Virus record (IMG/VR): IMGVR_UViG_3300009431_000002
Coordinates: 96,001-160,000 of that record
Strand: one strand, 5' to 3'
Length of the DNA: 64,000 bases
From: a virus
Taxonomy: Duplodnaviria; Caudoviricetes
The translations under genes were made by a program, and so were the position numbers. Shown one piece after another: positions 35,060-56,239 of the stretch (position 1 is the first letter of the stretch; the number at the start of each line of letters is the position of its first letter). The notes under the pieces were generated by a model. The model made no database searches, had not been told where the DNA came from, and saw nothing but the letters and a program-made list of their open reading frames with translations.

Positions 35060-36230
35060 CGGCCCCCTCCTTCTCCAGCAGGGTCTTGTAGCCGCGGGGC
35101 TGCATGCCTGCGTCGAGCGCCTTCTTGAACCTGCGGACGTGCTTGCAGTCGCTGCCCTTGTGCGACCGCTTGTAGTACCAGTCCGGGCACGTGCATCCGA
35201 CTCGACCCGAGGACATGAGCTTCAGGGTGTACCGCTTGGGTCCGACATCGGACTTGACCCGGCGGACGTGCTCGGCGCCCTGCATGCCCTCCATGGCCCG
35301 CACGTGCCTTTTTAGCTTCGAGTCGGCCTCGGGGTGCAGGAGGATGGCCTGGCGGAACCCCGGGGACCGCAGGGCGCGGCCCTTGTACTTCTTCCACGCG
35401 TCCTGCGTGGGCGCGGGATCCGTGACGAGCCTGTCGGCCTGCTGCAAGTGCTTGGGCTTCGGGATGGTCGGCGGCAGCGGGCCCTGCCGGGCCTCCTTGA
35501 CCGCCGACGTCTTCTCCGCCACGAACCGCAGATTCTGCGACCCGGGCGTCGGCACCCTGTGGTACCCGACCTTCCCGGTGGCCGGACTGTAGATCGCGTG
35601 CCACTCCCCTGCGCCGCCCGGCATCCTCGCCCCGTGGATGTCCACGCTGCTGGGCCACACCTCCGGGGACACGAGCCCGCGCACCACATCCCGCGCGCGG
35701 CGAGCGTGCCGAAGGTTGCCTGGGGTGGGCCGGTCGAGATCGACGCCAGCAGCGGCCATCAGCTCCTCGAACTCTGGGCTGAACGGCTCTGGTCGGAGTT
35801 CCTGCGCAAGGTCACGCTCGATCATGGCGGGGTCTGGCGGGTCGCCGGGGTGGCTGTGGGCCGTCGGGCGCGAGGGTCCCGTGCGGTTCGCGGAGACGGG
35901 CCGCAACGCCACCGTCCCACCATCGCCGTGGACTAGATGGCGCGAACGCCCGCGCACGCCCACCTCGCCTACCTCATCCGCGCTCGCAGCCGCCAGATCC
36001 TTCATCCTGGCGGTCGGCGCGGCAGTCGATGGGTGGTCGATCTTCCCCTTCCTGAGCATCTTGGCCAGCCAGCGCCAGTCGCCCTCGCCCACCGAAACAC
36101 CGGCCGCACGTGCCGTCCGCGCGAGGTCCTCCGTGCGCGCTGACGTCTTGGCCAACTCGACGAAGTTGGCGCCCAAAATCGACCCCAGGCTATGGGCGAT
36201 TTCTGGGCGGCTGGTCAGATCTGATTTCAT
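34980..36230 (-). CDS. SWIM zinc-finger protein with N-terminal tag
   Basis: GCTCPDW...DCKHV (CxC-xn-CxH); N-terminal ANFVELAKTSA; TGATG coupling to the Snf2 gene. Confidence 0.75.
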   Translation of the reverse strand: MKSDLTSRPEIAHSLGSILGANFVELAKTSARTEDLARTARAAGVSVGEGDWRWLAKMLRKGKIDHPSTAAPTARMKDLAAASADEVGEVGVRGRSRHLVHGDGGTVALRPVSANRTGPSRPTAHSHPGDPPDPAMIERDLAQELRPEPFSPEFEELMAAAGVDLDRPTPGNLRHARRARDVVRGLVSPEVWPSSVDIHGARMPGGAGEWHAIYSPATGKVGYHRVPTPGSQNLRFVAEKTSAVKEARQGPLPPTIPKPKHLQQADRLVTDPAPTQDAWKKYKGRALRSPGFRQAILLHPEADSKLKRHVRAMEGMQGAEHVRRVKSDVGPKRYTLKLMSSGRVGCTCPDWYYKRSHKGSDCKHVRRFKKALDAGMQPRGYKTLLEKEGAVSGFASELARLAPALDPACSALAGFH

Positions 36231-39073
36231 CAATGGCTCGGGATGTAGTGCTCGGTCTTCTGGACCTTCTCCTCGGTCACGGACAGCCCACGCAGCATGG
36301 CACGGAGCTGCTCGTCACCGAGTCGCGCCCGCTTGCGCGCGTGGGTCTTGGGCGTCGTGAAGTACGGGTCGCGCAGGCCCAGCAGCATCTCTGGCGTGAG
36401 CATCAACGCAGCGAGCCCTGTGCCGGCGGCGACGGCGCCCCCGATGCCCACCGCGGCCTGGGTGACCGAGCGGGACCGGGGCAGTAGGTCTTCGGCGAGC
36501 CCGATGCCCAGTGGAGCGAAGGCAGGGGCGCCAGACAGGCCGACCAGCGGCGTGGCGATGCCCAGGACCTTGGCCGTGTTCACCAGCCTGTCCTTGTCGG
36601 TCTTCATCCCCTTGGGCGCCGGCGTTCCGCGCGCGGCCGCGCGGTAGTACTGGCGCAGGGTGTCGATGAAGTACTGCTCGCGCGCCTGCTTCTTCTCGTT
36701 GCCCACGGCCTCGACGTACGGGTCGGCCATGTCCTCGATCTTGTCGCCGAACTCGTTCCAGTACGCCTCCATGATGGGCTGGTCGGACTTGACGAGGCTG
36801 CGGCCCTCCTGGAAGGGGATGCGCTTGGCTGCGGCCCGCAGCTTCTTCTTGTCCACCTTGGCCGCGGAGATCTTCTCCATCTCGTCGTCGAAGGCGGCCT
36901 GCATCACGGCGAGCTTGAGCAGGGAGTCCTCGGCGAGCTCACCGACGGCGTAGTCGAACTCGGACTCCACGCTGGCGGCCTTGGACTTGCCCTTCAACTG
37001 GTGGCGGAACGACTCGTTGAGCACGTCCTTGCGCTTGGCGACGTCGTACATCCACTCGTCGGGCGAGGTCTCCCGCTTGAACGGGTTGTACATGATCGGC
37101 GCGCCGGCGGTGGTCAGGCGGTCGAGGAAGCCTCCAGGGGAGATGAGCTTCAGCGTGTCCTTGGCGGTCTGCGTGGCCGAGCGGGGCACGACGCTGACGT
37201 ACCGGCGGATGACGACCTTGCGCTGCTCCGGCTCCCGGTGCGCGAGCCCGCCGGCGCGGACCGCGCGGGCCTCGGCCTGCTGGATCTTCTCGGGGTTGAA
37301 GTGGCCGTCGAGCGCCGCGAACATCGTGGCGTTCTTGAGGTCCAGCCCCTCGCCGCCGGCGGCAGAGATGACGAGGACCTTGTTCTTGCCCTTGTTGAAG
37401 TCGCGCACAGACCGTTGGCGCTTCTCCTCGGTCACCCCGGGCTGGCCCTTGCCCACGAAGGTGCCGAAGGGGATGCCGCGGTCCTTCAGCCCCGCGGACA
37501 CGACGTCGACCCCACCCTTGATCAAGTTCGAGTGGATGACGACCTGGCCGTCTTCGGTCTCGGCGAGGTGGTCCTCGACGTCGTCCAGCATCACCTTGAC
37601 CTTCGGCGTCTTCTGCGCCGACTCGGTGATGTCCATGTCGTTGTCGATGGTGTGGATCGAGTTCGAGACCTGCCGGGCCTGGATGATCTTGGCGAAGATG
37701 TTGTTGAGGTCCCGGCTCTTGAGCTGGCTGGCACCGAAGCGCAGCTTGATGGCCGTGACGGGGTCGAGCTTGTCCACCACGTAGCGGTAGAGCTCCTCCT
37801 GTCGCGGGCTCATCATCACCTTGACCTCTTCGACGACCTTGTCGGGCATGCGCTCGTCGTCCATGTCCTTGGTCTCGAAGTGGTCGACGAACGGGTTGAG
37901 CAGGGCGCGCACCATCCGCGGCCGCGCGATGGTCTTCTGCCCCTTCTTGTCCTCGCGGACGAAGCGTCGCTCGAAGTGGTTCTTGGTGCCCAGGCGGTGC
38001 TTGCCGCCGGTCATGGCGTCGACCAGCGGGACCATGTCGCCCGGGGTGTTGTTCATGATCGACCCAGTCAGGCCGATGAAGTTCTTGTGGTGCGGGCGCG
38101 CGTCCTTCAACGTCTTGTAGGTCGCGCCCTCCTCGTTGCGGATCCGGTGGAGCTCGTCGTAGATGACGGTGTCCGCGCCCGAGGCCTTGATGTACTTCTC
38201 CGGGTCCTTGCGGAACATCTCGTAGCTGACGACGTGGTAGCGGGCACCGTCGTCGGGGTCCTCGGCGGCCCTGGCAACGCCCTTGGCTACCTCCTGGCTG
38301 TTGCCGAAGATCGCACCGCGGGCGTTGGTGAACTTGCGGACCCCGTTGTCCAGGAAGTTGGCGCGCAGCGACGCCGGCGTCACGACCAGCGCGCGGCTGG
38401 CGTCCCCGGAGTCTCGCATCTTCTCGAACGAGGCGATGGCGGTGATGGTCTTGCCGGACCCCGTGCCGTGGGACAGGAGCAGGGAGCCACCGCGGTTCAT
38501 CACCTTGTCGACCGCAGCCCTCTGGTGCTCGAACAGCTCGACGTTGCGCTTCAGTCCCTTGGGCTCGAACCTCTGTTCCTTCTTGCGCTTCGCCACCTTC
38601 ACCGAGCTAGCCTTGGCCATGCCCGGCGCCGCCTCTCCCATCGTCTCCGCGGACCGCCCGACGACCCGGCCCAGGTGCTCCGGCAGCTTCCGCAGCTTGC
38701 CCTTCAGCAGCTGCTCCGCCTCCACCGAGCTGGGTGAGGGTGCGAGGCCGAGGAGCTTCGACGCGAGCATGTCTCCCTTGAGGGCACCGAGTCCCGCGAC
38801 CTCCGCTGTGCCAGGCACGGGCAGGGCTGCTGCTGCACCCATCGCCGCGGGGATGGTGGCGATGTTGTCGGTAGCGGCGCCGACCAGGACTCGCTGGGTC
38901 TCAGGGTTGAGCAGGTGGAATCGAGAGGTCCCCGGAACCTCCGTCAGCAGCACGCGCTGGAGAGCGTCGGACGCGCCGCCCGCAGCCTGCTCCACCGCCT
39001 GCCCGACGCGCGGCAGCCCGACGCGGCGGAGGAGTTCGCCTGTGATCTGCCCACGTGCCGCCGCCTTCTCCAT
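36230..39073 (-). CDS. SWI2/SNF2-family ATPase, 947 aa
   Basis: HGTGSGKT, VVTPASL, VSYE, YDELHR, LTGSIMNN, AGGEGLDL, QAEARAVRAG; flanked by K-x-A motifs and AAFDDEMEKIS. Confidence 0.9.
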   Translation of the reverse strand: MEKAAARGQITGELLRRVGLPRVGQAVEQAAGGASDALQRVLLTEVPGTSRFHLLNPETQRVLVGAATDNIATIPAAMGAAAALPVPGTAEVAGLGALKGDMLASKLLGLAPSPSSVEAEQLLKGKLRKLPEHLGRVVGRSAETMGEAAPGMAKASSVKVAKRKKEQRFEPKGLKRNVELFEHQRAAVDKVMNRGGSLLLSHGTGSGKTITAIASFEKMRDSGDASRALVVTPASLRANFLDNGVRKFTNARGAIFGNSQEVAKGVARAAEDPDDGARYHVVSYEMFRKDPEKYIKASGADTVIYDELHRIRNEEGATYKTLKDARPHHKNFIGLTGSIMNNTPGDMVPLVDAMTGGKHRLGTKNHFERRFVREDKKGQKTIARPRMVRALLNPFVDHFETKDMDDERMPDKVVEEVKVMMSPRQEELYRYVVDKLDPVTAIKLRFGASQLKSRDLNNIFAKIIQARQVSNSIHTIDNDMDITESAQKTPKVKVMLDDVEDHLAETEDGQVVIHSNLIKGGVDVVSAGLKDRGIPFGTFVGKGQPGVTEEKRQRSVRDFNKGKNKVLVISAAGGEGLDLKNATMFAALDGHFNPEKIQQAEARAVRAGGLAHREPEQRKVVIRRYVSVVPRSATQTAKDTLKLISPGGFLDRLTTAGAPIMYNPFKRETSPDEWMYDVAKRKDVLNESFRHQLKGKSKAASVESEFDYAVGELAEDSLLKLAVMQAAFDDEMEKISAAKVDKKKLRAAAKRIPFQEGRSLVKSDQPIMEAYWNEFGDKIEDMADPYVEAVGNEKKQAREQYFIDTLRQYYRAAARGTPAPKGMKTDKDRLVNTAKVLGIATPLVGLSGAPAFAPLGIGLAEDLLPRSRSVTQAAVGIGGAVAAGTGLAALMLTPEMLLGLRDPYFTTPKTHARKRARLGDEQLRAMLRGLSVTEEKVQKTEHYIPSH

Positions 39074-39074: not shown

Positions 39075-40052
39075 TCAGTGCCCTTCCTGCCGGCTCACCG
39101 ATGGGTACAGGCCGCCGGTCTTGATGAGTCCCTCGGAGATCCGCTTGCCCCGCACGTCGCGGCGACGCAGCAGTCGTCGGAAGTCGTCGAACGACATCGT
39201 CGTCATCGACCCGAAGAACTTGGGGCTGTTGTAGTGCTTGAGGTACGCCCGCTTCGCCTCCTTGGCATTGCGGAACCCCAGCATGCACTTGTCCTCGTCG
39301 TACTCCTTGAAGCCGGGCTTCTTCATCTGGTGGACGATGTACACCACGTCGGAGTGGAGGTCTGGCCCGACGTACACGTCGACGGGGTCGCCGTCGGGGG
39401 CCATGGTCCGTCGGACCTCACCGTAGTGGTGCTGCATCTTCGTGCTGCCGGACTCGCCGGTGTTCTCGTCCTTCCAGTGCCGGCTGGAGCCGCGGCGGTT
39501 CTCGATGTAGATCTTCAACCCACGGAAGTCGATGGTCCCCTGGTAGGGCCACTCCTTCCTGTTCCGCTTCGGCGGCGGGCCCACCTTGGGCTTGACCTCC
39601 TTGGGGTCAGCGCCGTTGGCCTTGGCCACCTTCTCCAGCGCCGCGATGATGGCGAGCCCACTGGCCTTGTAGAAGTTGCCCTCGTTCACACCGACCGTCT
39701 CACTGTTCCGCGCGTCCTCCAAGCCCTTCAGCCCGTCCTTCGTCAGCTCGGGGCCGCCCTTGACCTTCAGGAACTCGTGCCCGTCGCCGTCGACACTGGT
39801 CTTGTAGGCGCGGCTGGCGCCGATCTGGCTGTTGTGCTCGACCGCTCGGAGCAGCCGGACCATCTTGGCGACGGTCTCCGGGTGGCCCTCGAGCTCCAGC
39901 TTCACCGAGGCGCGCGGCTGCTCACCGACCTTCTCCGGCAGCTTCTCGTCCGGTGTGTGCCTCTCCCACTTCTTGACGGTGCCCTTGGGCACACGACCAT
40001 CCGCCTCCATGGCGTGGAAGAGTCGTCGCTGTGCCTCGCTCTGGAATGGCAT
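39075..40052 (-). CDS. Protein with N-terminal MPFxSxAQ module and C-terminal inorganic pyrophosphatase-like (InPase) domain
   Basis: GLKIYIENRRGSSR...MQHHYGEVRRT.APDGDPVDVYVGP...VYIVHQ...YDEDKCMLGF...AKRAY matches the phage/polyvalent-protein InPase pattern. Confidence 0.75.
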   Translation of the reverse strand: MPFQSEAQRRLFHAMEADGRVPKGTVKKWERHTPDEKLPEKVGEQPRASVKLELEGHPETVAKMVRLLRAVEHNSQIGASRAYKTSVDGDGHEFLKVKGGPELTKDGLKGLEDARNSETVGVNEGNFYKASGLAIIAALEKVAKANGADPKEVKPKVGPPPKRNRKEWPYQGTIDFRGLKIYIENRRGSSRHWKDENTGESGSTKMQHHYGEVRRTMAPDGDPVDVYVGPDLHSDVVYIVHQMKKPGFKEYDEDKCMLGFRNAKEAKRAYLKHYNSPKFFGSMTTMSFDDFRRLLRRRDVRGKRISEGLIKTGGLYPSVSRQEGH

Positions 40053-44339: not shown

Positions 44340-45431
44340 TCACCTCAAGTACGTGTTCTGGGCCAGGATGGAGCTGGCCGGAGTCGTCGGGGCCGCGGCT
44401 GTCGTACCCGCCACGGAGTGCGTGTGCGACTGGAGCCAGGAGACGAGCGTGTCTCCCAACACACCCTTCTGCGCGCCCTGCTGACCGCCGACCGTTACCT
44501 TCCCGCTGGGCTCCACCACGACGGAGCCTCCGCCCATCGTGATGTTGCCGGTGGCCGTGATCTCCACGTCGCCACCGCTGTCTATCTTCACACTGGTTCC
44601 ACCCTTGAGCATAGCTTCTTGAGTGGCTTCGACCTTCGCGTTCTCCTGTGCCACGAGCTCGATGTTCTTCTTGGCCGCCACCAAGAAGCTGTCCTCGACC
44701 GCCCAGGAGACCTCGCCGTTGTGCTTCACCGTCAGCTCGGCGTTGAGCGTCGCCTCCTCGGCGCCATCCACGTTCACGCCGAGCCGTAGGGCCACGTCTT
44801 CGTCGTCAGGGTCGTGGCCGAGCAGCAGGGAGCACACGTAGCCTGGGTCCGTGGCCTTCTCCTTGGCCCGCAGCAGCAGCGTCGTGGTCTTGTCTCCGTC
44901 CGCGTTCTTCTCCGGCCGGTCGACCAACCAGGTCAGCTCGCCGCCGAACGTCCGCAACTCGTACTGTGAGCACACGTCGCGGATCATCCGATGGATCGGC
45001 AGGTACAGGCGCTGGGCCAGGGGGCCGGCCATCACCTGCACCACGCCACCGCGTCGGATGGTGATGCCGTTGCCGTCCCTCGTGCTCATGTGGATGTCGC
45101 CGGGGTTGAGGTCCTTGCGGGTGGCGCGCCACCCCTCCTCCCCCGGCGGCGGCGCGTACCCCAGGATGAACGGGTGCTCCCCGTCGCTCGGCCAACAGAC
45201 CCAGCACATCGCCCCGACCTCCGGCATGATGTACACGCCTTCGCCGAAGTAGTGGTGCATGTACGGCGACATGAACGGCACGTCCCCGTAGTAGCGCATC
45301 GAGTGCTGGGTCACGAAGTCCACGGAGTACAACGGCGGGTTCACGTTGATGACCTGGGCGGACTCCACGTACGCCTCGGTGAGCTCACCGAGAGCAATCG
45401 GTCGCGGTTCCTGGTGGGTCGCCCGAGTCAC
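44340..45431 (-). CDS. Baseplate central spike (gpV/gp138-like)
   Basis: N-terminal OB-fold-like AQVINVN...MPEVGAMCWV; beta-repeat body; C-terminal LVSWLQSHTH with the HxH metal-binding tip motif. Confidence 0.8.
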   Translation of the reverse strand: MTRATHQEPRPIALGELTEAYVESAQVINVNPPLYSVDFVTQHSMRYYGDVPFMSPYMHHYFGEGVYIMPEVGAMCWVCWPSDGEHPFILGYAPPPGEEGWRATRKDLNPGDIHMSTRDGNGITIRRGGVVQVMAGPLAQRLYLPIHRMIRDVCSQYELRTFGGELTWLVDRPEKNADGDKTTTLLLRAKEKATDPGYVCSLLLGHDPDDEDVALRLGVNVDGAEEATLNAELTVKHNGEVSWAVEDSFLVAAKKNIELVAQENAKVEATQEAMLKGGTSVKIDSGGDVEITATGNITMGGGSVVVEPSGKVTVGGQQGAQKGVLGDTLVSWLQSHTHSVAGTTAAAPTTPASSILAQNTYLR

Positions 45432-45438: not shown

Positions 45439-45861
45439 TCAACGACGGAGCAGCGTCGCGCCCCCGAGGCCCAACGTGCCGAGACCAGCCATGCCTCCGG
45501 CGCCGGCCAGCGCACCGCCGCCGACGTCACGGGCGAGGTCGCCGCCCTCCTGGACCTGCTTGCCCCAGCCCTCGAGGCCCTCGCCCCAGCCGCGGCGTGT
45601 CTTGCCGGCGTCCAGGGCCTCCGTGCTCATCTTGCCCTTGGGCTGGGCCTTCACGGCGCGGGCCATGGCGTCGTCGCCCGACTGGGTGAGCTTGCCGCCC
45701 AGCCACTTGGCGCCGCGGCCGATGAGCTTGCCGGCCTGCTCGATGAGCGCGAGCTTCTCGAGGTCGCTCAGGCCACGGGCGTCTGCCACCTTCTCGAGCT
45801 CGTCGAGGAACCCGCCGACGAAGGCGTGCTCGCATGCGGCCGCGTGCTTCTCCATATCCAT
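45439..45861 (-). CDS. Tagged small membrane-anchored protein, 140 aa
   Basis: MEKHAA...GGFLDELEKVA...LEKLA; C-terminal GGGALAGAGGMAGLGTLGLGGATLL. Confidence 0.7.
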   Translation of the reverse strand: MDMEKHAAACEHAFVGGFLDELEKVADARGLSDLEKLALIEQAGKLIGRGAKWLGGKLTQSGDDAMARAVKAQPKGKMSTEALDAGKTRRGWGEGLEGWGKQVQEGGDLARDVGGGALAGAGGMAGLGTLGLGGATLLRR

Positions 45862-45870: not shown

Positions 45871-46656
45871 CTATCCAAAGTGGCGCGGCGTTGGCGCGTC
45901 GAGCCACAGATATTTGCTTTCGTGCGCTGACAGCCGAGGCTTGAGCCACCGCATGGCTTCCTGAGGCCCGCGGCTCTGCAACTGCTCCCGGTACGCGTCC
46001 TGTATCTGACTGTACTCTAAATCTCGTCGGTCGACCGACCGCTCCAGCAACGCCCGAAACCGACGTCGCATAGCCTTCGGCATCTTCTGCCCAGGACGGC
46101 CAACGAACCCACCTGCGCGGGCGTCCCCGAACGCCTCGGACGCCTGCCTGGACAGACGCCTGTACTCCGGTTCGCGCAGCCTACGCCACAATCCAGCCGT
46201 CTCCCAGCCACCGCCCGGGCCCTCTAAGGTGTTAATGAGATTGGACTCCTGGACCAGCACATCTGGCTCTGCGTGACCAGAGACCAGTTCCGTGAGCTTC
46301 TCGCCGTAACGGCCAGCTTTCCGCTCCGCAGCCTCGTGTATGGTGGCGATCCCACGAAGGTTGGTTTGTGCCTCCCTGGAGGCGTGTGGGGCAATACCGC
46401 GACCCGCGGATGGCGCCACGTAGACGGCACCTGCAGCCCGAGCCAGGGCCGGGGACTGATCCTTTATGGCCTCCGGCAAACGCTTCGGTATGTGGAACGC
46501 GCCAGCGCGCATCGGTGTGGTGCCGAGCTCCTCCCAGGCTTTCGCTGGTAGCCTACGCAGTGGGGCGATGCGCTCGGTAGCCACGCGAAGATCTGCAGCT
46601 GACACCGCGATCTTCACAAGCTCGTCGCAAAACGCCGCCAGTCGCCTCCGCTCCAT
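45871..46656 (-). CDS. Tagged hypothetical protein with HExxE motif, 261 aa
   Basis: LAAFCDELVKIA at the N-terminus; TIHEAAE...SGH...QE; A/T-richer codons than flanks. Confidence 0.6.
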   Translation of the reverse strand: MERRRLAAFCDELVKIAVSAADLRVATERIAPLRRLPAKAWEELGTTPMRAGAFHIPKRLPEAIKDQSPALARAAGAVYVAPSAGRGIAPHASREAQTNLRGIATIHEAAERKAGRYGEKLTELVSGHAEPDVLVQESNLINTLEGPGGGWETAGLWRRLREPEYRRLSRQASEAFGDARAGGFVGRPGQKMPKAMRRRFRALLERSVDRRDLEYSQIQDAYREQLQSRGPQEAMRWLKPRLSAHESKYLWLDAPTPRHFG

Positions 46657-46664: not shown

Positions 46665-49600
46665 CTAGTACCCGACGCGGAACTCCGTGGTGCCGGGTGT
46701 TCCTTTCTCAGGCTGCCCGAACTCGGAGCCATAGGCTAGCGCCGGGATCGGATGCAACCCGTGGATGTTGCTGGACCAGCCCCTCAAGGCACCGTCGACG
46801 ATGGTGTCCTTCAGCTTCTGGTACTGGAGCCGCGCCATCCAGTCCTCCTGCATGTCCAGCGGCGTCTGCGTGACCCCGCGCAGGATGGGCGTGAACTTGA
46901 CGGGCTTCTTGCGCTTCTTGTTGTGGTACCCGACATTCGACGTGGACACCAGGTCTCCTGGGAGGAGGTCGGTGTCGCCGGCGTCATCCACTACGCCGAG
47001 GTCGGTGATGGCGCGGACCGCGGTCTCCACGTTGCGCCGGAGCACTGGGCCCGCGTCCGAGTACGCCTTGTGGACCTCGTCCGCGAGGTAGCCGCGCACC
47101 GTGTTGATGTTGGTCAGCGGCAGCATCTCGTGCGGATTGATGGGCCCGCCGGAGAGCCGGTCCCCCTTGCGGACCTTCACGCCCTTGCGCAGCTTGATCT
47201 TCTCGTTGACCAGGTGCTCGGGGACGTAGTGCCTCTTCCCCTTGACCCAGATGTTGAGGCCGCCGACCTCGGCGTCCTTCTCCACCCGCTCTACGGTGCC
47301 CGTGGTCGTCGCCAGCGTCGCCGAGTCCGCCAGCACCTTGGGCATGCGCAGCAGGTCCTGGACCCTGGTGAACTTGTCGGTGGACCGGCCGCTCTTCGAG
47401 GCAGCGACCCCGCCTTCGTGGAACGCGCGCATCGACAACTGCGTGGCGGGCTCGCCCAGTGCCTGCGACGCGATGACCCCGATGTTGGTCCCCGGGTCGG
47501 GCAGCTGGCCGTCCGGCAGGTTGCCGTAGTCCCGTGCGTACAGTCCCTTCGGGGCCACCGACTTCAGCGGGCTGCGGATCGACACGCGCCGGACGCCGCT
47601 GTTCTTCATCCTCGTCTGGACCCGGTCGGTGACCTCGGTGTTCCTCGGCAGGACGTCGCCGCCCCGGAGCTTCACGGGCCGCGCGAGGTAGCGACCGATG
47701 ACCTCGCGGTCCTCGGGGTCCGCGCTGATGCCGTCGTCGGCGTCGTCCGGCGCGTCCCCATCGACCACGACGAGGTTCATGGCAGAGTTCACGACGTCCT
47801 TGGTCAGCGCGCCGGGCTTGGCGGTCTCCTTCGTCTTCTGGATCATGCCCTTGCGCGCACCGTGCATGGCCGTGAAGTAGCTGGCGGAGTCCAGGCCCTC
47901 GGCGTAGCTCTTGGTGATCGGCACCGGCACGATGCGGTCGGCCGCGTCCTTCACCAACATGGGGGCGATGAGGATCTGCCGGACCTGGTCCCAGTTGCCG
48001 CGAGCACCGGCGTTGACCATCTCCAGGGCGTGGTTGCCCTGCCGCTCCAACTTCGGACGGATGGCCCGGCTCAGGTCCTCGGTGGCCTTGGAGTAGAGGT
48101 CGACGAGGCGCTGGTCCTTCTCCTCCTGGGTCAGCGACTTCATCTTCTGGATGCGCTTGGCCGCCTTGTGGACCCCAGCCAGGGCGCGGTCGCGCACAGC
48201 CTGCTGCGCCTGGAAGTCGTCGAGGGTGAACGACGCGCCAGACTCGTAGGCGTAGTCGTTGCCCATGTCCTTGAGGTCGTTGACGACGTCGCCGAAGTCG
48301 GCCGAGTGCTCCTTGGCCATCCGGGTGAGGAGGTCCTTGGTCGGGCCCTTGGACATCCGGAAGTCCTTGGAGTGGAGCAGCTGCGCGTCCCCTCGCATCC
48401 CCTCCGGCAGCACGCGGTCGAGGAGGATGCGACCGAGGGTCGTCTCCCTGCCCTTCACCGAGACCACGTCGGTCATGCCGAGGCCGAGCTTGCGGGCCTT
48501 GGCCGCCACCTGCGCCGGCGAGTCGAAGCGGTGCGACGTCTTCTTCCCCCACTCTGTCAGCCGGTACAGCCCGAGCTGGGCCTCGTGGCCCGGGGAGTAC
48601 ATCACCCGGCCGGTGGTGGTGTTGAACAGGTTGTTGGACGGGAAGAGCTTGCGCGCCTCCTCCACCGCCTCCTTGGCGAGCGGAACGTAGGCGGACATCT
48701 GGTCGCCGTCGAAGTCGGCGTTGTACCCCGAGGTCACCAGGGGGTGGATGCGGATGGCCTTGCCGCCGACGAGCTTGGGCTTGAACGCCATGACCCCGAA
48801 CTTGTGGAGCACCGGGTCACGCTTCAGCAGCACCGGCCGCTCCTCCATCACGCGCTCAAGCGCGTGCCGGGCGACCTTGGAGTTGGTCCGGACCAGGTGC
48901 TGTGCCTCGGCGGGGACGTAGCCCTGCTCCCGCACCAGCTTTCGCACGACGAAGGGCTTGTACGTCTCCTTCGCCAGCTTGTAGGGGATGCCCACCTCGT
49001 CCAGTCCCATGTCGGGCTCGGGGATGATGGTGGACCGCATCGACAGGTCCTGCCGGCGGGAGACGAGGTTCTTCTGGAAGAACGAGTCCTTGGGCTGGGG
49101 CACGCCCTTCATCGTCTCCATCACGCCGCGGTGCTTGCGGCCGTTGATGGTGGAGCCGGTCATCATCAGGGCGCGGAGCCCGTCGTAGAGCTCGGCGGTC
49201 AGCTTGCTCTTCGTCTTCTCCCCGAGTCCGGGGTCGTAGTCCCGCAGCTGGATGTTGGTGATGCCGAGGCTCTTGTACAGGCCGTTGATGTCCGAGTCGT
49301 TGAGCTTGCCCGACTCCATCACCGAGACCGGCCGCATCACCGGCGGCATGACGGGCACGACCGAGGTGAAGTACGCCTGGTCGGGGGTCAGGTCGTTGGC
49401 GACCAGCGCCTCGAGGAACCGGATCTGCTTGCGCAGCTTCGCCATCGTCGACACGGCCTTGGTGGTCTCGGCCTGGCGACGGAGCGTCTCCAGCTGCTGC
49501 CGTGGGTCGATGGCCGCCAGCCGTGCGCGGATGGCTTCGGGCCCGGTCTTCCCGTCGAGCGTCTTCTCGCCGGCGATGACGGCCTGGTAGTCCTTGTTCT

Positions 49601-52600
49601 TCAGCCCCGTGAAGGTGAGGATGGCCTTCTCGAACACCGGGTTCGGCATGGGCTCGGCCAGCCGGATGTGGGACCAGCGCTTGCCGTCCACACCGCCCGT
49701 GGCGTAGGGGTCGAACAGCCCGCCGCGCTCCGGCTTGAGGTCCTTGCCCCGGAACATCAGGCCCGGGTCCTTCAGTTCGCCGCTGGACATCCGCAGGATC
49801 TGCTCGTCGGTGAGGGGCGCGAGGTTCAGGGTCGAGCCCTGCTTCTTGACGTCGACGCCCAGCACGTTGAGGTAGCCGTTGAACTTGTCGAAGGCGAACG
49901 AGGTGGACGGCGGTGGGAGCTGCTCCCCAGTCTGCAGGGCCATCCACAGCTCGGGGTTCTTCTGGCTCTTGTAGGTGGCCATCTCCCGGATGTTGGCCTT
50001 CGCTCCATGAGCCAACATGGCGTACATGCCCAACGCGTCCATGGCCTGGGCGCCGTGGGCACCACCGCCCTTCGGAACCTCGTTGACGCTGTACGCGTAC
50101 CCGGCCCCGCCCGCGCGGGCGTGGGACTTCTTGTCGATCTGGTGCTTGAGCTTGAGGATGTACTGGTCGCCCGTGAGGATCGGCCCCAGGCTCTGCCCGG
50201 ACTTGGGGTCCACCAGCTCCTCGGTGTCGGACAGGCCCTCCTTCGCCAGCTCCGCCTTCATCTCCTTGGCGTAGTTGCGGTTGGCCCCGCCGAAGTTGTT
50301 GGTGACGTACCGCTTGCCCCGCTTCCGGGCGATCTTCCCGGCCATCGTCTCGAGGACCTGGCCGAGGTTGATGCGGCCGGGGATGCCAGCCGGGTTGAGC
50401 AGGACCTCGACCGGGGCGCCCTCTTCGCCAGAGGCGCGCGGCATCTCGTGGTCAGGCAGCACCGCCGTGACGATGCCCTTGTTGCCGTGGCGTCCGACCA
50501 GCTTGTCCCCGACGCGGGCAGGCTCCTCGGTGGCGACGTGGACGCTGACGTCCTTGCCCCGCTTGACGACGCGGACCACCCGGCCCTTCGTGTCCTTGTC
50601 CCAGACGATGGGCTTGGGGTCCATGTCCCGCACGAGGCTCTTGTGCAGCCGCGCCCGCATGCGACGCTCGCTGGTCTGCTCCGGCTTCTTCAGCGCGGCG
50701 ACGAGGATGTCCCCCTCGTTGACCTCCTGCCCCACCTGGATGACGCCGTCGTCGTCGAGCTTGTCGTAGACCTCGCGCTGCACGCGGTCGGGTGGCGCGT
50801 ACGCGCGGAACTTCTTCTTGTCCAGGACCGTGTTCTTGGTCAGCCGCATGCTCTTGCGGTGCATGTGCTGGGACTTGAGCTTCTCGGCCGCGGACTCGGA
50901 GACGACGATGCCGTCCTCGAAGTTGTACCCACGGTACGGGATGTAGGCCACCCGGAGGTTCTTGCCCAGCGCGAGCTTGCCTTCGCGCGTGAAGTTGGTG
51001 TCGGCCACCGTCTGGCCGCGCTTGACCTTGTCCCCCTTCTTCACGAGGGGCTCGGAGTGCAGGACGCTGGACGCCTCGTTGAGCGGGAAGTGGTCGTAGA
51101 GCTGGACCTCCTCCAGCTTCCCGGCCTTGCTCCGGATCTTGATGGCGCCGGGCCTCACCGACACCACGGTGCCTTCCACCGGGGACTCGTGGGAGTTGAA
51201 CTGGCCCAGCACGTCCTCGAAGGTGGACCTCACCTCGGTCTTGGACTGCACCAGCGGCTCGTCGCGGTCCACCAGGGGCACGGCCTGCTCCTGCTGCCGG
51301 GACGCCGTCATGGCCCTGTTGCCCTGGTTGTTCTGCAGGAAGGGCACGAGGTTGGTGGCCATGCTGAACAGGCCCTTGGCCGACGGGAGGATGTAGTCCA
51401 CCTCGCTGGCCGGCACCTGCATCACCTCGCCGCCCGGGCCGCTGACCGTCACCTCCTTACCGATGGGGACGAGCCGGTTCTTCACCTTCTTGTACTGGTC
51501 TGGGAAGGCGACGGTGGAGCGGTGCGCCTTGTGCGGATCGATCTTCTCCCGGCGGCCCGTCTTCGTGTTGTAGGCCTGGATGTAGAGGGTCTTGCCCTTC
51601 CGCGACACCCCCAGCGGGAGCTGGAGGGTGATGCCGGTGCGGTCACCCTCCGGGGTGTGGATGGGGTCGAGGAAGCCGAGGTGCGTCGGGTCGATGAGCT
51701 GGTCGGCGTCGGTCAGGGTGTGGGTGCTCTTGACCCCGCCCTCGCCCATGATGGTGGTCTTGGACTGGCCGGAGATGAACTCCAGCGGGTTGACCTGGTC
51801 GGGCATCTGCGACAGCTGGGTCTGGGTGAAGAAGGTCTTGATGGGCTTGTCGAACAGCCCGGGGGTCACGACCTCCCTGACGTCGGCCTTGCGGTCGATG
51901 TTGTTCTCCATCTTCCGCTGCAGATCCCAACGGCCGCGGGTCAGCCGCTCGGCCACGAAGTCGTCGACCGACAACGCGTCCTTGTAGAACAGGTGCTCAC
52001 GCGCGTCCGGGGTGTCCTCGCCCCTCGAGATCCGCGCGAGCTTGTGGGCCGAGGCCAGGAGCGACGGGCCGCTCACCTTGTCGTAGGCCTTGCCCAGGGT
52101 GATCTTCGTGCTGTCGGGGCGCAGCACGGTCGTGCCGAACTCATCTCGGAGGTGGCGCTCGGCGTCCTCGATGCTGGGTGCCTGCTTGCCCGTCGACGCC
52201 TTGTAGAAGGCGCGCATGGCGACGTCGTGCTTCTCCTTCTTCCCCTGGTTGAGGATCCCGCGGCCCAGCTCGCGCTCGATGGTGTCGTCGTCGACCCCCA
52301 GCACCTTGAGCATCGGGTAGAGCGGGATGTGGGAGTTGCCGTACCGGACCAGGAACCGCCGGTCCTCCGGGTGGAACCGGAGCCGGAAGTTCTTGCCTTT
52401 CGCCATGTTCCACTGGGACTCCAGCTCACCCTTGGCGCTGACGCGGTGGTACACCCCAGCCTTCAACCGGAACTGGTTGTCGACCTGGTACTCCTTGCCG
52501 TCGACGATGTAGGAGTGCCGCTTGGTCACGCGGGGCAGGTTGCCCACGCGCATGGACTTGCGGCTGATGACCTTGCCCGTCTCCTTGTTGACCAGGGAGA

Positions 52601-52811
52601 CGTCGGCCATAACAGGGTCAGCCCAAGTCCTGCCCTTGAGCTTCGCGTCCTGCTGGGACCGGATGTCGTCGATGCCCTTCTTGTCGTCGACCCAGACCCG
52701 GTGGAGCTCCAGCCGGTTCTCTCGCCCCTCGAAGGGGAACATCGACGAGATGGCGTCGCTGACACGGTCTTTGAGGGCACCGTAGGAACCCTCTGGGTTC
52801 AGTGTCGCCAT
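46665..52811 (-). CDS. rpoBC: Single-chain fused beta-beta' multisubunit-type RNA polymerase, 2048 aa
   Basis: Beta motifs GDKLVGRHGNKG, LNPAGIPGRINLGQVLE, ILKLKH; beta' motifs KPERGGLF, PVMPPVMRP, LLKRDPVLH, YNADFDGDQM (catalytic), HGARKG (bridge helix), SQALGEPATQLSMRAFH (trigger loop). Confidence 0.97.
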   Translation of the reverse strand: MATLNPEGSYGALKDRVSDAISSMFPFEGRENRLELHRVWVDDKKGIDDIRSQQDAKLKGRTWADPVMADVSLVNKETGKVISRKSMRVGNLPRVTKRHSYIVDGKEYQVDNQFRLKAGVYHRVSAKGELESQWNMAKGKNFRLRFHPEDRRFLVRYGNSHIPLYPMLKVLGVDDDTIERELGRGILNQGKKEKHDVAMRAFYKASTGKQAPSIEDAERHLRDEFGTTVLRPDSTKITLGKAYDKVSGPSLLASAHKLARISRGEDTPDAREHLFYKDALSVDDFVAERLTRGRWDLQRKMENNIDRKADVREVVTPGLFDKPIKTFFTQTQLSQMPDQVNPLEFISGQSKTTIMGEGGVKSTHTLTDADQLIDPTHLGFLDPIHTPEGDRTGITLQLPLGVSRKGKTLYIQAYNTKTGRREKIDPHKAHRSTVAFPDQYKKVKNRLVPIGKEVTVSGPGGEVMQVPASEVDYILPSAKGLFSMATNLVPFLQNNQGNRAMTASRQQEQAVPLVDRDEPLVQSKTEVRSTFEDVLGQFNSHESPVEGTVVSVRPGAIKIRSKAGKLEEVQLYDHFPLNEASSVLHSEPLVKKGDKVKRGQTVADTNFTREGKLALGKNLRVAYIPYRGYNFEDGIVVSESAAEKLKSQHMHRKSMRLTKNTVLDKKKFRAYAPPDRVQREVYDKLDDDGVIQVGQEVNEGDILVAALKKPEQTSERRMRARLHKSLVRDMDPKPIVWDKDTKGRVVRVVKRGKDVSVHVATEEPARVGDKLVGRHGNKGIVTAVLPDHEMPRASGEEGAPVEVLLNPAGIPGRINLGQVLETMAGKIARKRGKRYVTNNFGGANRNYAKEMKAELAKEGLSDTEELVDPKSGQSLGPILTGDQYILKLKHQIDKKSHARAGGAGYAYSVNEVPKGGGAHGAQAMDALGMYAMLAHGAKANIREMATYKSQKNPELWMALQTGEQLPPPSTSFAFDKFNGYLNVLGVDVKKQGSTLNLAPLTDEQILRMSSGELKDPGLMFRGKDLKPERGGLFDPYATGGVDGKRWSHIRLAEPMPNPVFEKAILTFTGLKNKDYQAVIAGEKTLDGKTGPEAIRARLAAIDPRQQLETLRRQAETTKAVSTMAKLRKQIRFLEALVANDLTPDQAYFTSVVPVMPPVMRPVSVMESGKLNDSDINGLYKSLGITNIQLRDYDPGLGEKTKSKLTAELYDGLRALMMTGSTINGRKHRGVMETMKGVPQPKDSFFQKNLVSRRQDLSMRSTIIPEPDMGLDEVGIPYKLAKETYKPFVVRKLVREQGYVPAEAQHLVRTNSKVARHALERVMEERPVLLKRDPVLHKFGVMAFKPKLVGGKAIRIHPLVTSGYNADFDGDQMSAYVPLAKEAVEEARKLFPSNNLFNTTTGRVMYSPGHEAQLGLYRLTEWGKKTSHRFDSPAQVAAKARKLGLGMTDVVSVKGRETTLGRILLDRVLPEGMRGDAQLLHSKDFRMSKGPTKDLLTRMAKEHSADFGDVVNDLKDMGNDYAYESGASFTLDDFQAQQAVRDRALAGVHKAAKRIQKMKSLTQEEKDQRLVDLYSKATEDLSRAIRPKLERQGNHALEMVNAGARGNWDQVRQILIAPMLVKDAADRIVPVPITKSYAEGLDSASYFTAMHGARKGMIQKTKETAKPGALTKDVVNSAMNLVVVDGDAPDDADDGISADPEDREVIGRYLARPVKLRGGDVLPRNTEVTDRVQTRMKNSGVRRVSIRSPLKSVAPKGLYARDYGNLPDGQLPDPGTNIGVIASQALGEPATQLSMRAFHEGGVAASKSGRSTDKFTRVQDLLRMPKVLADSATLATTTGTVERVEKDAEVGGLNIWVKGKRHYVPEHLVNEKIKLRKGVKVRKGDRLSGGPINPHEMLPLTNINTVRGYLADEVHKAYSDAGPVLRRNVETAVRAITDLGVVDDAGDTDLLPGDLVSTSNVGYHNKKRKKPVKFTPILRGVTQTPLDMQEDWMARLQYQKLKDTIVDGALRGWSSNIHGLHPIPALAYGSEFGQPEKGTPGTTEFRVGY

Positions 52812-52832
52812 GGAACGTCCAGTTGTGCCATC

Positions 52833-52861: not shown

Positions 52862-52863
52862 CG

Positions 52864-54241: not shown

Positions 54242-56239
54242 TCAGACGACCGCCCGCTCGAGGGGCCGGCGCGGGGGCTTCTGCTCGGGGAGGGGCTGCT
54301 GAAGCGGATTCAGCGTGTCTCGCTGGCCTCCATCGCCCTCGCTCAGCAGGGCCTGGACCATGCGGTAGATGTCGGGGCTGCCCATCCGCAGCTTCTGCAT
54401 GGCCTGCGGGAACATGGCCGGCTGCTCGTCCTGGATCCGGCGCATCTCCGTGGCGATGCGTCGCGCGACGAAGCGGACGTCGACCATCTCGTTGCCGCCG
54501 GTCATCTGCCCCATGTGCATGGGGGACTGGACCTCCTGCGGGAGGTTGTCGACGTACACGGCCGCGCCGTCCGGCACACCCGGACCGATCTGCTCGCCGC
54601 GCATGACCGATGGCTGGGTCTGCGGCAGCTCGGCGTAGGACGGCGGGGACTCCGGCGGCTGCTGCATCTGCATCTGCATGTGCTGGGCCTGGATCTCGTA
54701 GCGGAGGGCCGCCAGCTGGGCCTCCCCCTGCGCCGCGGCCTGGGCCACCACCATCTCGCGGTTGGCTGCCACCTGCTTGACCAGCTCCTGCTTCTTCCGC
54801 TTCTCCTCGGTCTCCAAGTCCTCGCCGAGCTCGCGGAGGAACGTGGTGTCGGAGATCTTCATGGCCTGGTTCGCCTGGAAGTAGACCATCAGCCTCTGCA
54901 GGTCGTCGGCCATCTTGAACCGCTCGAACCGGATGGGCACCCTCGGCCAGCCGAGGAACTCGCAGATGCGGCCCATGACGAAGTCGCCAACCAGCCGGAG
55001 TTGGTCGTCGCGGTACCCACTGAACTGGTTCTCGAGGATGCGCATCGACACGTTGGTGCCGGTGTACTGCATGCCACCGAAGATGAACTCGATGGGCACG
55101 TTCATGCCCGCGATGATCTGCTCGCTCCAGACCCGCAGCTCCTGGTGGAGGATGAGCGCCCGTCCCTGGCCGCCGATCATCTCGTGGCCGAGTGGGATGG
55201 GCATCAGCGGGATGTAGTTGGGGTCCTGGCGCCAGCGAGCGATCTCCTCCTGGACCTGGTCCTTCCACTCCCCGAGGTTGATCATCGTGATGGGGTCGCC
55301 GGTCTGCCCGTTGGCCTGCGGGTACAGCACGCGCAGCGGGACGATGTGCTCCTGGGCGATCATCTCCTGGCCCTTGCGCAGGACCTGCAGGTAGAAGATG
55401 TCCTTGAGCACGGGCAGGACCAGCGGCATGCCCCAGCCCTGGTCCTTCTGGGCGATGATGGGCCGCTTGAGGTGGAACAGCGTGCCCGGCGCGAACTTCA
55501 CCGACTTCTTCTTCCGCATCGCCTCGATGAAGGTGTCGGGCACCGTCTCGATGACGTTGCGGCGGCCGATGGTGATGGCGTTCTTCAGCTTCTGCGGCAG
55601 CTTGTAGAAGTAGGTCGGGTCGGTGACGCCCTCGTTGTCGTCGATCTCCACCCGCTCCGGGTCCCACCGGACCAGCCGGATGCCCTTGGCCGTCCGCATG
55701 GCCTCGTCGTGGACCTCGGCCGGCCGGCGCTCCCCGCACTCGGGGCAGGTCAGGTAGTAGACCATCTCCTGGTAGCGGTAGTGCCTGCGGAGCTTGTCGA
55801 TGGGCGCCTTGTGGCCGCAGTGACGGCACTTGAGGTGCTTGACGAAGGGGAAGTGCACCGTGACGAAGGCGTTGCCGTAGTTGTAGTAGTCCAGCCCCAC
55901 CTCGATCTGGAACTTGCGGACCTGGAGCTGGTCCTCGAAGAGGTGGCGGTACCGCTCTCGGACGTCCTTGTCGTCGGCCTCGTAGATGATCTTGGTGATG
56001 GGGTACTCGGCCAGCTTGTACACGACCGCGTTGATGAGCGGGTTCGTGAAGAAGAAGTACCGGCACCACTGCAGCATCTGCTTGAGGCGCGCGGGGAAGT
56101 ACGTCTGGGCGGCGTCGAAGAACGGGTTGGGGTACCGCACCCCGGTCCGCTGCATGCTCGAGCCGAGCGTGACGGGCGTGCGGGAGAAGCGGGTCAGCCC
56201 GTCACCGTAGGAGACGCCGGTGTACCCGAGGCCTGGCAT
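54242..56239 (-). CDS. Portal protein with zinc-ribbon insertion, 665 aa
   Basis: NPLINAVVYKLAEYPIT, GLDYYNYGNAFV, GWGMPLVLPVLK are portal-like; insertion CRHC...CPEC; Q/M/P-rich C-terminal tail. Confidence 0.85.
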   Translation of the reverse strand: MPGLGYTGVSYGDGLTRFSRTPVTLGSSMQRTGVRYPNPFFDAAQTYFPARLKQMLQWCRYFFFTNPLINAVVYKLAEYPITKIIYEADDKDVRERYRHLFEDQLQVRKFQIEVGLDYYNYGNAFVTVHFPFVKHLKCRHCGHKAPIDKLRRHYRYQEMVYYLTCPECGERRPAEVHDEAMRTAKGIRLVRWDPERVEIDDNEGVTDPTYFYKLPQKLKNAITIGRRNVIETVPDTFIEAMRKKKSVKFAPGTLFHLKRPIIAQKDQGWGMPLVLPVLKDIFYLQVLRKGQEMIAQEHIVPLRVLYPQANGQTGDPITMINLGEWKDQVQEEIARWRQDPNYIPLMPIPLGHEMIGGQGRALILHQELRVWSEQIIAGMNVPIEFIFGGMQYTGTNVSMRILENQFSGYRDDQLRLVGDFVMGRICEFLGWPRVPIRFERFKMADDLQRLMVYFQANQAMKISDTTFLRELGEDLETEEKRKKQELVKQVAANREMVVAQAAAQGEAQLAALRYEIQAQHMQMQMQQPPESPPSYAELPQTQPSVMRGEQIGPGVPDGAAVYVDNLPQEVQSPMHMGQMTGGNEMVDVRFVARRIATEMRRIQDEQPAMFPQAMQKLRMGSPDIYRMVQALLSEGDGGQRDTLNPLQQPLPEQKPPRRPLERAVV

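What the first reader, a model, noticed from the sequence alone, without database searches (positions are those of the whole stretch)
46665..52811. Streamlined beta-beta' fusion RNA polymerase closely following the bacterial motif order
Seen: one 2048-aa ORF with beta motifs, then a short junction (...FNGYLNVLGVDVKKQGSTLNLAPLTDEQILRMS) into beta' motifs. Established: E. coli beta plus beta' total about 2750 aa; natural fusions exist in Helicobacter and Wolbachia; phiKZ-type enzymes are instead split into several genes. Inference: a minimal two-barrel enzyme that may assemble without alpha subunits and recognise promoters without sigma.
Basis: partly seen in the sequence, partly recalled or inferred. 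Interest (0 to 1): 0.78.

Follow-up and report, generated by a model that had tools for sequence, protein, structure and literature searches.

The report
Single-chain phage RNA polymerase with own sigma
A 202-kb uncultured marine phage encodes both large subunits of a bacterial-type RNA polymerase as one slimmed, cysteine-free 2048-residue protein, a layout shared by hundreds of related phages, but it most likely works with a phage-encoded sigma factor rather than without one.

Summary
Window 46665-52811 (-) is a real 2048-aa gene: beta (residues 1-992) joined with no linker to beta' (993-2048), with all catalytic motifs intact. The opposite-strand 2040-aa ORF is a high-GC shadow. The fusion is not an artefact. 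The same joint occurs in over 100 metagenomic proteins of about 2050 aa and in the cultured phages Arash and D69.

"Streamlined" is only partly special. Most of the shortfall against E. coli is the absence of E. coli-specific inserts. The real family losses are the beta' zinc ribbon, about 90 aa of the beta lobe, and the termini. This clade has also replaced all four Zn-II cysteines and has no Cys at all.

"Without sigma" is not supported. The phage encodes a 229-aa sigma70-family protein orthologous to Arash Gp10, which was found in virions. It is present in 13 of 15 near-complete lineage genomes, and a model docks it on the beta' clamp helices.

"Without alpha" is plausible but untested: no alpha or omega homologue was found in 12 lineage genomes.

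The gene follows the portal gene, so the enzyme is probably packaged and injected.

This scan has already met the family on five other genomes. I found no paper describing it. The published mReC clade is a different lineage.

The parts
46665..52811 (-). Fused beta-beta' RNA polymerase gene (P0001, 2048 aa, no cysteine)
49836..52811 (-). beta module, residues 1-992. It has both lobes (the beta2 lobe is reduced), a diverged Rif pocket at 327-398, a flap, and the DPBB motif GDK..GRHGNKG at 768-779
   Evidence: Alignment. The fold model (pLDDT 78.9) matches bacterial beta over its full length, TMq 0.78-0.80, E 1e-73
46665..49835 (-). beta' module, residues 993-2048. The zinc ribbon (ZBD) is deleted near residue 1039. 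The Zn-II ligands are replaced by A1687, S1751, Y1758 and D1761. The bridge helix lies at 1638-1683 and the trigger loop at 1772-1808, with no SI3 insert
48702..48722 (-). Catalytic NADFDGD motif (residues 1364-1370)
49191..49283 (-). Shortened beta' clamp helices (residues 1177-1207), the predicted docking site of the phage sigma
   Evidence: Alignment; interface
54242..56239 (-). Portal protein gene upstream of the RNAP gene, orthologue of Arash gp204
   Evidence: BLASTP E 3e-86. Arash and D69 have the same portal-then-RNAP order
45871..46656 (-). 261-aa protein starting 8 nt after the RNAP stop codon, with the N-terminal FCDELVKIA tag (candidate head-targeting peptide)
   Evidence: no family hit
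45439..45861 (-). 140-aa protein with the tag variant FLDELEKVA
44340..45431 (-). Baseplate-spike-like protein with weak gp5/VgrG OB and DUF2345 hits
   Evidence: sub-threshold
39075..40052 (-). Inorganic pyrophosphatase (InPase domain) in the same - strand gene run
   Evidence: PF18823, E 1e-35
36230..39073 (-). SNF2-family helicase, 947 aa, cysteine-free, homologous to Arash helicase Gp217
   Evidence: Pfam hits; 0 Cys; tblastn E 9e-40 to the gene next to Arash beta'C

Best explanation
P0001 is the catalytic core of a phage-encoded bacterial-type RNA polymerase, with beta and beta' made as one chain. Shown: the two modules are joined without a linker. Every catalytic element is kept: both double-psi barrels, NADFDGD, the bridge helix and the trigger loop. 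The beta' zinc ribbon is deleted family-wide. In this clade the second zinc site is also replaced and no cysteine remains. It is the only two-barrel RNAP in a complete 202-kb genome. The fusion is ancestral to a large phage lineage that also includes Arash-type phages, in which beta' was later split. The genome also encodes a compact sigma70-family protein that co-occurs with this RNAP lineage. Inferred: the sigma binds the shortened clamp helices of the fused core and directs it to phage promoters. The enzyme is made late from the portal/head gene run and packed into the capsid with the sigma and an SNF2 helicase. It is then ejected with the DNA and starts early transcription, and newly made copies may carry on later. 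The fusion, with no alpha or omega gene in the lineage, probably replaces the alpha-dimer scaffold. The diverged Rif pocket (H526->G, S531->T) predicts rifampicin insensitivity.
For: Gene and domains. Catalytic motifs and the deletion map against Salmonella (E. coli numbering) and B. subtilis. The beta fold model matches bacterial beta with TMq 0.78-0.80. Over 100 fused proteins of about 2050 aa come from independent assemblies, and 295 viral loci encode a relative. Tree: the junction-fused lineage forms one cluster (SH-aLRT 100), apart from the bacteria and from mReC, with the split forms nested inside it. There is a single RNAP in the genome. Sigma: phrog_351 E 1e-15, and Sigma70_r3 at 39.8 bits against a cut-off of 25.3. 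It aligns to regions 2-3 of RpoS/SigA and has a region 2/3/4 layout. It is orthologous to Arash_gp10, E 8e-29, and present in 13 of 15 lineage genomes that are at least 70% complete, against 0 of 2 mReC-type genomes. Complex model of sigma with residues 993-1460: ipSAE 0.68, best control 0.00, runs agreeing in at least 29% of contacts, partner pLDDT at least 65. That mark was reached by 51 of 78 solved complexes and 2 of 108 mismatched pairs. The interface is residues 1177-1207, the clamp helices. Packaging: portal-then-RNAP synteny, tagged proteins directly downstream, and family-wide avoidance of cysteine (77 of 91 members have only the 4 Zn ligands). In Arash virions, Gp206 gave the most spectra of any protein, and Gp216, sigma Gp10 and helicase Gp217 were also detected (PMC10585845). 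No alpha or omega.
Against: There are no experimental data for this phage. The Arash virion list is permissive: 116 proteins, including ribonucleotide reductases, and its authors allow carry-over. The RNAP itself lacks the N-terminal tag. Sigma with clamp helices is a textbook pair, so the complex pass may reflect likeness to solved holoenzymes, and it cannot tell the phage core from the host core. Phage sigmas that serve host RNAP are common (PMC13282480). One complete lineage genome (G005) shows no sigma match. Fused E. coli and Helicobacter enzymes still use alpha (my own knowledge), so fusion alone does not show alpha independence. The Arash mass spectrometry used a phage-only database, so host alpha would not have been seen.
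Confidence: 0.6

Rival explanations
1. The fused chain is a self-sufficient minimal enzyme that finds promoters without any sigma, and the phage sigma-like protein instead redirects host RNAP, as T4 gp55 or SPO1 gp28 do.
For: Other phage two-barrel RNAPs (phiKZ, AR9, crAss) lack sigma homologues, and RNAP-less jumbo phages use sigma homologues with host RNAP (PMC13282480). One complete relative lacks a detectable sigma. The clamp helices are shortened and only 19 of 67 positions match Salmonella.
Against: The sigma orthologue tracks this RNAP lineage, 13 of 15 genomes against 0 of 2. It is found in Arash particles together with the RNAP. It is modelled on the phage clamp helices with ipSAE 0.68 against 0.00 for the controls. 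The flap-tip helix and clamp coiled-coil are retained.
Confidence: 0.12
2. The enzyme is not packaged. It is a non-virion RNAP made during infection for middle or late genes, and host RNAP reads the early genes.
For: The RNAP lacks the head-targeting tag. The Arash virion list may include carry-over of abundant proteins. Ejecting a 230-kDa protein is demanding. The phage has only one RNAP, unlike phiKZ with its virion and non-virion sets.
Against: The gene sits in the portal/head gene run on the structural strand. Family-wide cysteine avoidance is hard to explain for a purely cytoplasmic enzyme. Arash Gp206 gave about 2.6 times the spectra of the major capsid protein.
Confidence: 0.25
3. The fused core still needs the host alpha dimer, and perhaps omega, to fold and assemble. 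It is not alpha-independent.
For: Natural (Helicobacter) and engineered (E. coli) beta-beta' fusions still use alpha (my own knowledge). The beta fold is complete. No experiment excludes host alpha.
Against: If the enzyme is packaged and acts on entry, it must be complete in the particle. No alpha or omega gene is found in 12 lineage genomes. Hosts range from Salmonella and Vibrio to an unknown marine high-GC host, while the core is only about 29% identical to any bacterial core.
Confidence: 0.3
4. The fusion is an assembly or read-level artefact, or a decaying captured host gene.
For: None was found. Only short contigs could be laid over the joint.
Against: The joint is identical across hundreds of independent assemblies and in cultured phages. 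The coding signature is strong, and all catalytic residues are conserved.
Confidence: 0.01

Closest known systems
RNAP of Salmonella phage Arash (Gp206 + Gp216, with sigma Gp10) and of Vibrio phages D69/D148/D181
   Same: The beta|beta' joint is fused and the zinc ribbon is lost in the same way. Both have portal-then-RNAP synteny, an orthologous sigma (E 8e-29) and a homologous SNF2 helicase next to the RNAP. They fall in the same tree cluster.
   Different: Identity is only about 30-32%. In those phages beta' is split at P0001 residue ~1455 into a second gene, whereas here the whole enzyme is one chain. The Arash paper annotates 'subunit beta' and does not note the fusion.
mReC phages (Weinheimer & Aylward 2020, PMC7481178)
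   Same: They are uncultured tailed phages with RNAP large subunits alignable to cellular ones, branching outside the sampled bacteria.
   Different: mReC have separate genes, in beta' then beta order, of about 900 and 1000-1400 aa. Identity is about 26%. They form a separate long-branch cluster, none of the 2 near-complete genomes has this sigma family, and their MCP is T4-type.
phiKZ / AR9-type virion and non-virion RNAPs
   Same: They are phage-encoded two-barrel enzymes with no alpha or omega. One of the two sets is packaged and injected.
   Different: Those are split into 4-5 polypeptides, come in two paralogous sets, and have no sigma70 homologue (PMC7824862, PMC13282480). Here there is one chain, one set and a canonical sigma. 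PHROG matches to their families are weak.
Natural bacterial beta-beta' fusions (Helicobacter, Wolbachia; NCBIfam PRK09603, PRK14844)
   Same: The beta C-terminus is joined to the beta' N-terminus in one ORF.
   Different: Those are full-size cellular enzymes of about 2840-2890 aa with zinc sites, alpha and omega. P0001 scores 595 bits against a cut-off of 5372, so the fusion arose independently.
Single-chain divergent two-barrel RNAPs (crAss gp66, YonO, P23-45 TMP-fused RNAP) and N4 virion RNAP
   Same: They are single-polypeptide phage RNAPs. The crAss, P23-45 and N4 enzymes are delivered from the particle.
   Different: Those are barely alignable to cellular beta/beta', or unrelated in the case of N4. 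P0001 aligns over nearly its whole length (93-97% of its residues) to bacterial beta and beta'.

Membership tests
Bacterial-type two-barrel RNAP core (beta + beta') | beta DPBB with the GDK..GRHGNKG lysines, and beta' DPBB with NADFDGD | tested here: met
   Residues 768-779 and 1364-1370
Bacterial-type two-barrel RNAP core (beta + beta') | Bridge helix, trigger loop and full domain order along beta then beta' | tested here: met
   The beta model matches with TMq 0.78-0.80
Bacterial-type two-barrel RNAP core (beta + beta') | beta' N-terminal zinc ribbon (C70/C72/C85/C88) and Zn-II site (C814/C888/C895/C898) | tested here: not met
   The ZBD is deleted family-wide. The Zn-II ligands are A/S/Y/D here and CCCC in 41 other aligned sequences
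Cellular rpoB / rpoC orthologues (NCBIfam equivalogs) | Score above the curated cut-off | tested here: not met
   rpoC 542 bits against 963.5, and rpoB 407 against 896. About 29% identity to both Salmonella and Bacillus, which are 57% identical to each other
Helicobacter/Wolbachia-type fused RpoBC | Score above the PRK09603 / PRK14844 cut-off | tested here: not met
   595 bits against 5372, and 522 against 4632
mReC clade | Separate beta and beta' genes, clustering with mReC RNAPs, and a T4-type MCP (PF07068) | tested here: not met
phiKZ/AR9-type split RNAP | beta and beta' each split into two or more polypeptides, with no sigma70 homologue | tested here: not met
   A single ORF and a sigma present
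Junction-fused phage RNAP lineage (Arash type and fully fused type) | Conserved beta|beta' joint and loss of the ZBD | tested here: met
   tree cluster with support 100
Junction-fused phage RNAP lineage (Arash type and fully fused type) | Lineage sigma orthologue, portal-then-RNAP synteny and an SNF2 helicase | tested here: met
Junction-fused phage RNAP lineage (Arash type and fully fused type) | Presence of the RNAP and sigma in virions | not testable with these tools
   Only the Arash proteomics exists (PMC10585845)
sigma70 family (for the partner protein, G000 201197-201886, - strand) | Regions 2, 3 and 4 | tested here: inconclusive
   Region 3 is above the Pfam cut-off (39.8 bits). Region 2 (16.6 bits) and the C-terminal HTH are below it. 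phrog_351 gives E 1e-15, RpoS/SigA give E 4e-8 over regions 2-3, and the layout is visible in alignment A3

The most novel reading that the evidence does not exclude
A complete, host-independent holoenzyme made of only two proteins: a zinc-free, cysteine-free single-chain beta-beta' core and a 229-aa phage sigma. It needs no alpha or omega. It is stored in the capsid and ejected with the DNA, which makes the phage's whole transcription programme independent of host RNAP and insensitive to rifampicin. It would be the smallest known sigma-dependent bacterial-type RNAP.
Probability: 0.35. Interest if true: 0.82.

Novelty: new variant of a known kind. Interest (0 to 1): 0.64.

Why it matters
Current reviews sort large phages into two groups. 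One group carries split, sigma-less RNAPs. The other has no RNAP and uses sigma homologues to redirect the host enzyme (PMC13282480). This lineage combines a bacterial-type core, fused into one chain, with its own canonical sigma, and has hundreds of members in metagenomes and in at least two cultured groups.

If the chain plus sigma is active on its own, it would be a two-protein model of sigma-dependent transcription. It would show that the alpha scaffold, omega and both zinc sites are dispensable. It would also give a test case for how a 230-kDa enzyme is packaged and ejected.

The near-total absence of cysteine is a testable signature of virion-delivered enzymes.

The tree bears on the origin of phage RNAPs. 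The fusion is ancestral in this lineage, and the beta' split, which lies near the cyanobacterial rpoC1/rpoC2 break, is secondary.

Tried and rejected
- **+ strand ORF.** The 2040-aa ORF 46752-52874 was rejected as a shadow frame.
- **mReC membership.** Rejected. The supplement lists only separate beta and beta' genes, the loci have beta'-then-beta order, and the tree cluster is separate. A search of the mReC supplement for my relatives' sample numbers found nothing.
- **T4-type MCP (PF07068).** No hit.
- **T7-type RNAP (PF00940).** No hit, but the controls were also blank, so this is uninformative.
- **Reciprocal test** (do all genomes with this sigma carry the RNAP?). This could not be run. 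The sigma alignment had no stretch conserved enough for a pattern scan, and the single-protein scan found nothing.
- **beta' fold model.** It matches bacterial beta' locally over its full length (E 1e-60), but its global arrangement is poor (pTM 0.41, TM 0.30), so I drew no domain geometry from it.
- **Read-level check.** Only short Logan contigs were available, and none bridges the joint with 31 nt or more on both sides.
- **Expression.** No RNA holder is listed for the stretch, so nothing can be said about it.
- **Promoter words.** The intergenic 8-mer count was dominated by tRNA sequence. The GGCACAAG motif is a lead only.
- **Literature.** Searches for a description of the fused phage enzyme found none. 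The library is not exhaustive.
Full report
**What the window is.** It is bases 96001-160000 of a single 201,921-bp IMG/VR virus record, which CheckV rates 100% complete, with 67% GC. A GC3-based gene call gives about 194 genes. They include a large terminase (phrog_675, 4e-55), a candidate major head protein and a portal. This is a jumbo-size tailed phage. The sequencing runs that hold it are marine metagenomes.

**The observation.** ORF 46665-52811 on the - strand encodes 2048 residues, with GC3 0.96 and GC2 0.41. The 2040-aa ORF on the + strand is a high-GC shadow. Pfam finds the beta domains and then the beta' domains in bacterial order. NCBIfam rpoB, rpoC and fused-RpoBC models all match, but far below their curated cut-offs.

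I aligned 41 family members with Salmonella (E. coli numbering) and B. subtilis beta+beta'. Beta ends at G992 and beta' starts at S993, with no linker. The joint is conserved in the family and in Vibrio phage D69.

**Not an artefact.** A protein search returned 891 hits, and the best 120 all have the fused architecture at 42-67% identity. They come from independent assemblies, on contigs of up to 204 kb. A scan of viral contigs found 295 loci that encode a relative. Cultured phages Arash and D69 carry the same joint inside a gene of about 1525 aa. A 151-nt contig from another marine run passes through the joint, but only 22 nt lie on one side, so it is weak support.

**How streamlined it is.** Against E. 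coli numbering, the large gaps are beta 220-357 (SI1), 938-1049 (SI2) and 1126-1179, and beta' 947-1146 (SI3). These are lineage-specific inserts that B. subtilis also lacks.

The family-specific losses are:
- about 37 residues at the beta N-terminus;
- about 90 residues of the beta lobe;
- the beta C-terminal tail and the first ~15-25 residues of beta';
- the beta' zinc ribbon (residues 64-95, carrying C70/C72/C85/C88);
- beta' 127-174;
- several loops of 10-17 residues;
- the beta' C-terminal tail.

Several elements are kept: the beta barrel lysines, NADFDGD, the bridge helix, the trigger loop, a flap-tip helix and a shortened clamp coiled-coil. The Rif pocket is diverged. H526 is G family-wide, S531 is T, R529 is K and F514 is M. 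I infer from this that the enzyme is insensitive to rifampicin.

The beta model (pLDDT 78.9, pTM 0.73) superposes on bacterial beta over its full length, with TMq 0.78-0.80. The isolated beta' model matches locally over its full length but is badly arranged globally.

**No zinc, no cysteine.** P0001 and its two 67% relatives contain no cysteine. About 23 would be expected from the proteome average of 1.13%. The four Zn-II ligands are replaced by A1687, S1751, Y1758 and D1761. Of 91 intein-free family members, 77 have exactly four cysteines (the Zn-II ligands), 9 have five, 2 have six and 3 have none. Cysteine avoidance is therefore a family trait, and this clade has taken it to completion.

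**Relatives and published clades.** P0001 is 29.3% identical to Salmonella and 28.7% to Bacillus. Those two are 57% identical to each other.

I built a tree with IQ-TREE (LG+C20, 29 taxa, 1972 columns). It has three clusters, each with SH-aLRT 100: five bacteria, six mReC-type phages on a long branch, and 18 junction-fused phages. Within the last cluster the fully fused forms are basal, and the Arash-type forms are a single nested clade (support 98). So the fusion looks ancestral, and the beta' split at residue ~1455 looks secondary. The tree is unrooted and samples only three bacterial phyla.

The mReC paper lists only separate beta and beta' genes. Its loci have beta'-then-beta order. It is a different lineage, and the paper never mentions a fusion.

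**Sigma, alpha and omega.** No alpha (PF01000, PF01193) or omega (PF01192) was found in this genome or in 11 other lineage genomes, while the controls gave hits in 14 of 14.

The genome does encode a 229-aa, cysteine-free sigma70-family protein at G000 201197-201886 (- strand), which lies outside the window. The evidence is as follows:
- phrog_351 'RNA polymerase sigma factor', E 1e-15;
- Sigma70_r3 above the Pfam cut-off;
- weak region 2 and C-terminal HTH signals;
- alignment to regions 2-3 of RpoS/SigA;
- a region 2/3/4 layout in the orthologue alignment.

Its gene heads a - strand run that includes structural proteins. It is orthologous to Arash_gp10 (E 8e-29). A profile of the orthologues finds it in 13 of 15 lineage genomes that are at least 70% complete, and in 9 of 10 complete ones. 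It finds it in neither of the two mReC-type genomes.

I modelled the sigma together with RNAP residues 993-1460. The score was ipSAE 0.68, against 0.00 for the best control. The runs agreed in at least 29% of their contacts, and the partner pLDDT was at least 65. In the calibration, 51 of 78 solved complexes and 2 of 108 mismatched pairs reached this mark. The confident interface is RNAP residues 1177-1207, exactly the clamp helices, against sigma residues 12-18, 40-55 and 86-87. Sigma with clamp helices is a textbook pair, so the pass may reflect likeness to solved holoenzymes. It also cannot tell whether the sigma prefers the phage core or the host core.

**Packaging.** This is the only two-barrel RNAP in the genome. 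Its gene lies downstream of the portal gene (E 3e-86 to Arash gp204), the same order as in Arash and D69. It sits in a long, tightly spaced - strand run. That run continues with two proteins carrying the F-x-D-E-L-x-K-[I/V]-A tag, a spike-like protein, a pyrophosphatase and a cysteine-free SNF2 helicase. The helicase is homologous to Arash Gp217 (E 9e-40).

In Arash particles, mass spectrometry gave:
- Gp206 (the beta plus beta' N-terminal-half fusion): 3516 spectra, the most of any protein;
- Gp216: 1210 spectra;
- Gp217: 1148 spectra;
- sigma Gp10: 467 spectra, at 100% coverage.

That list has 116 proteins, and the search used a phage-only database. Packaging is therefore suggested rather than proven, and host alpha could not have been seen.

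**Verdict.** The enzyme is real. It belongs to a large lineage for which I found no published description. A 2026 review still treats phage RNAPs and phage sigmas as belonging to separate groups of phages.

The sigma-free claim is contradicted by the evidence. The alpha-free claim remains open.

Earlier notes of this scan describe the same family on five other genomes, and the same stretch here. I reached the cysteine result before reading them. I tested the tag lead myself.

Noticed in passing
window 46752-52874 (+): A 2040-aa open frame lies antisense to the RNAP gene. Its translation is R/L/G/V/H-rich nonsense, so it is a high-GC shadow ORF and not a gene.
   Followed up: yes
G000 10890, 62692, 70075, 75472, 90880, 91022, 128679 (window 32679), 148864 (window 52864), 155213 (window 59213), 166250; all + strand: The motif GG[C/T]A[C/T]AAGG recurs 30-45 nt upstream of the start codons of + strand genes. 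Some copies have ATTAGC 10-23 nt further upstream. GGCACAAG is intergenic in 8 of its 10 occurrences. It is a candidate phage promoter or 5' leader element for one gene class.
   Followed up: partly
window 52812-52900 (-), and L010/L011/L014 upstream of position 10001: A conserved element, GTTGCCAC..CCCTTGCA..GTAGCCTG, lies 25-55 nt upstream of the RNAP start codon in this phage and in its 67% relatives. CCTTGC[A/G] also occurs in the 42% relatives. No Shine-Dalgarno sequence is evident before the ATG. It is a possible promoter of the RNAP gene.
   Followed up: partly
family proteins P0017-P0121: 30 of 121 family members carry intein-size inserts of 220-510 aa, with LAGLIDADG, Hom_end and Intein_splicing Pfam domains. 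The inserts recur at P0001 positions ~389, ~772-783, ~949, ~1370 (inside NADFDGD) and ~1796-1800 (trigger loop). Some proteins carry two.
   Followed up: partly
window 15323-17041 (-), 22067-23767 (-), 36230-39073 (-), 40056-40865 (-); G000 5176-6612 (-): Several other sizeable proteins of this phage (269, 478, 566, 572 and 947 aa) also have no cysteine. Two more have one cysteine in 863 and 1174 aa. The proteome mean is 1.13%. This may mark virion-delivered proteins.
   Followed up: partly
window 45871-46656 (-) and 45439-45861 (-): The two genes directly after the RNAP gene carry the N-terminal tags FCDELVKIA and FLDELEKVA. Four other strict copies of F-x-DEL-x-KI[A/G] lie in proteins elsewhere in the genome; the strict scan of the whole genome found six in all, one of them FCDELVKIA (FLDELEKVA is a looser variant). 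The RNAP, the sigma and the helicase lack the tag.
   Followed up: partly
L066, L069, L071, L076, L080-L082, L086: mReC-type phages encode beta' (about 900 aa) upstream of beta (about 1000 aa). This is the reverse of the bacterial rpoB-rpoC order.
   Followed up: partly
P0001 residue ~1455 (window ~48447): Arash-type relatives split beta' at this point. NCBIfam cyanobacterial gamma (rpoC1) models match residues 1087-1426, and beta'' (rpoC2) models match from 1487. The phage split therefore falls at about the same place as the cyanobacterial and plastid split.
   Followed up: partly
window 52901-54187 (+): A small cassette of three short + strand ORFs (68, 101 and 89 aa), with a 66-aa - strand ORF (53321-53521) lying among them, sits between the portal gene and the RNAP gene, which are both on the - strand. 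Arash has a single same-strand 92-aa gene at this position.
   Followed up: no
P0001 residues 547-608: There is a sub-threshold Pfam Peptidase_M23 hit (26.4 bits, cut-off 28.7) inside beta. It most likely reflects the shared hybrid beta-barrel fold and not a peptidase.
   Followed up: no
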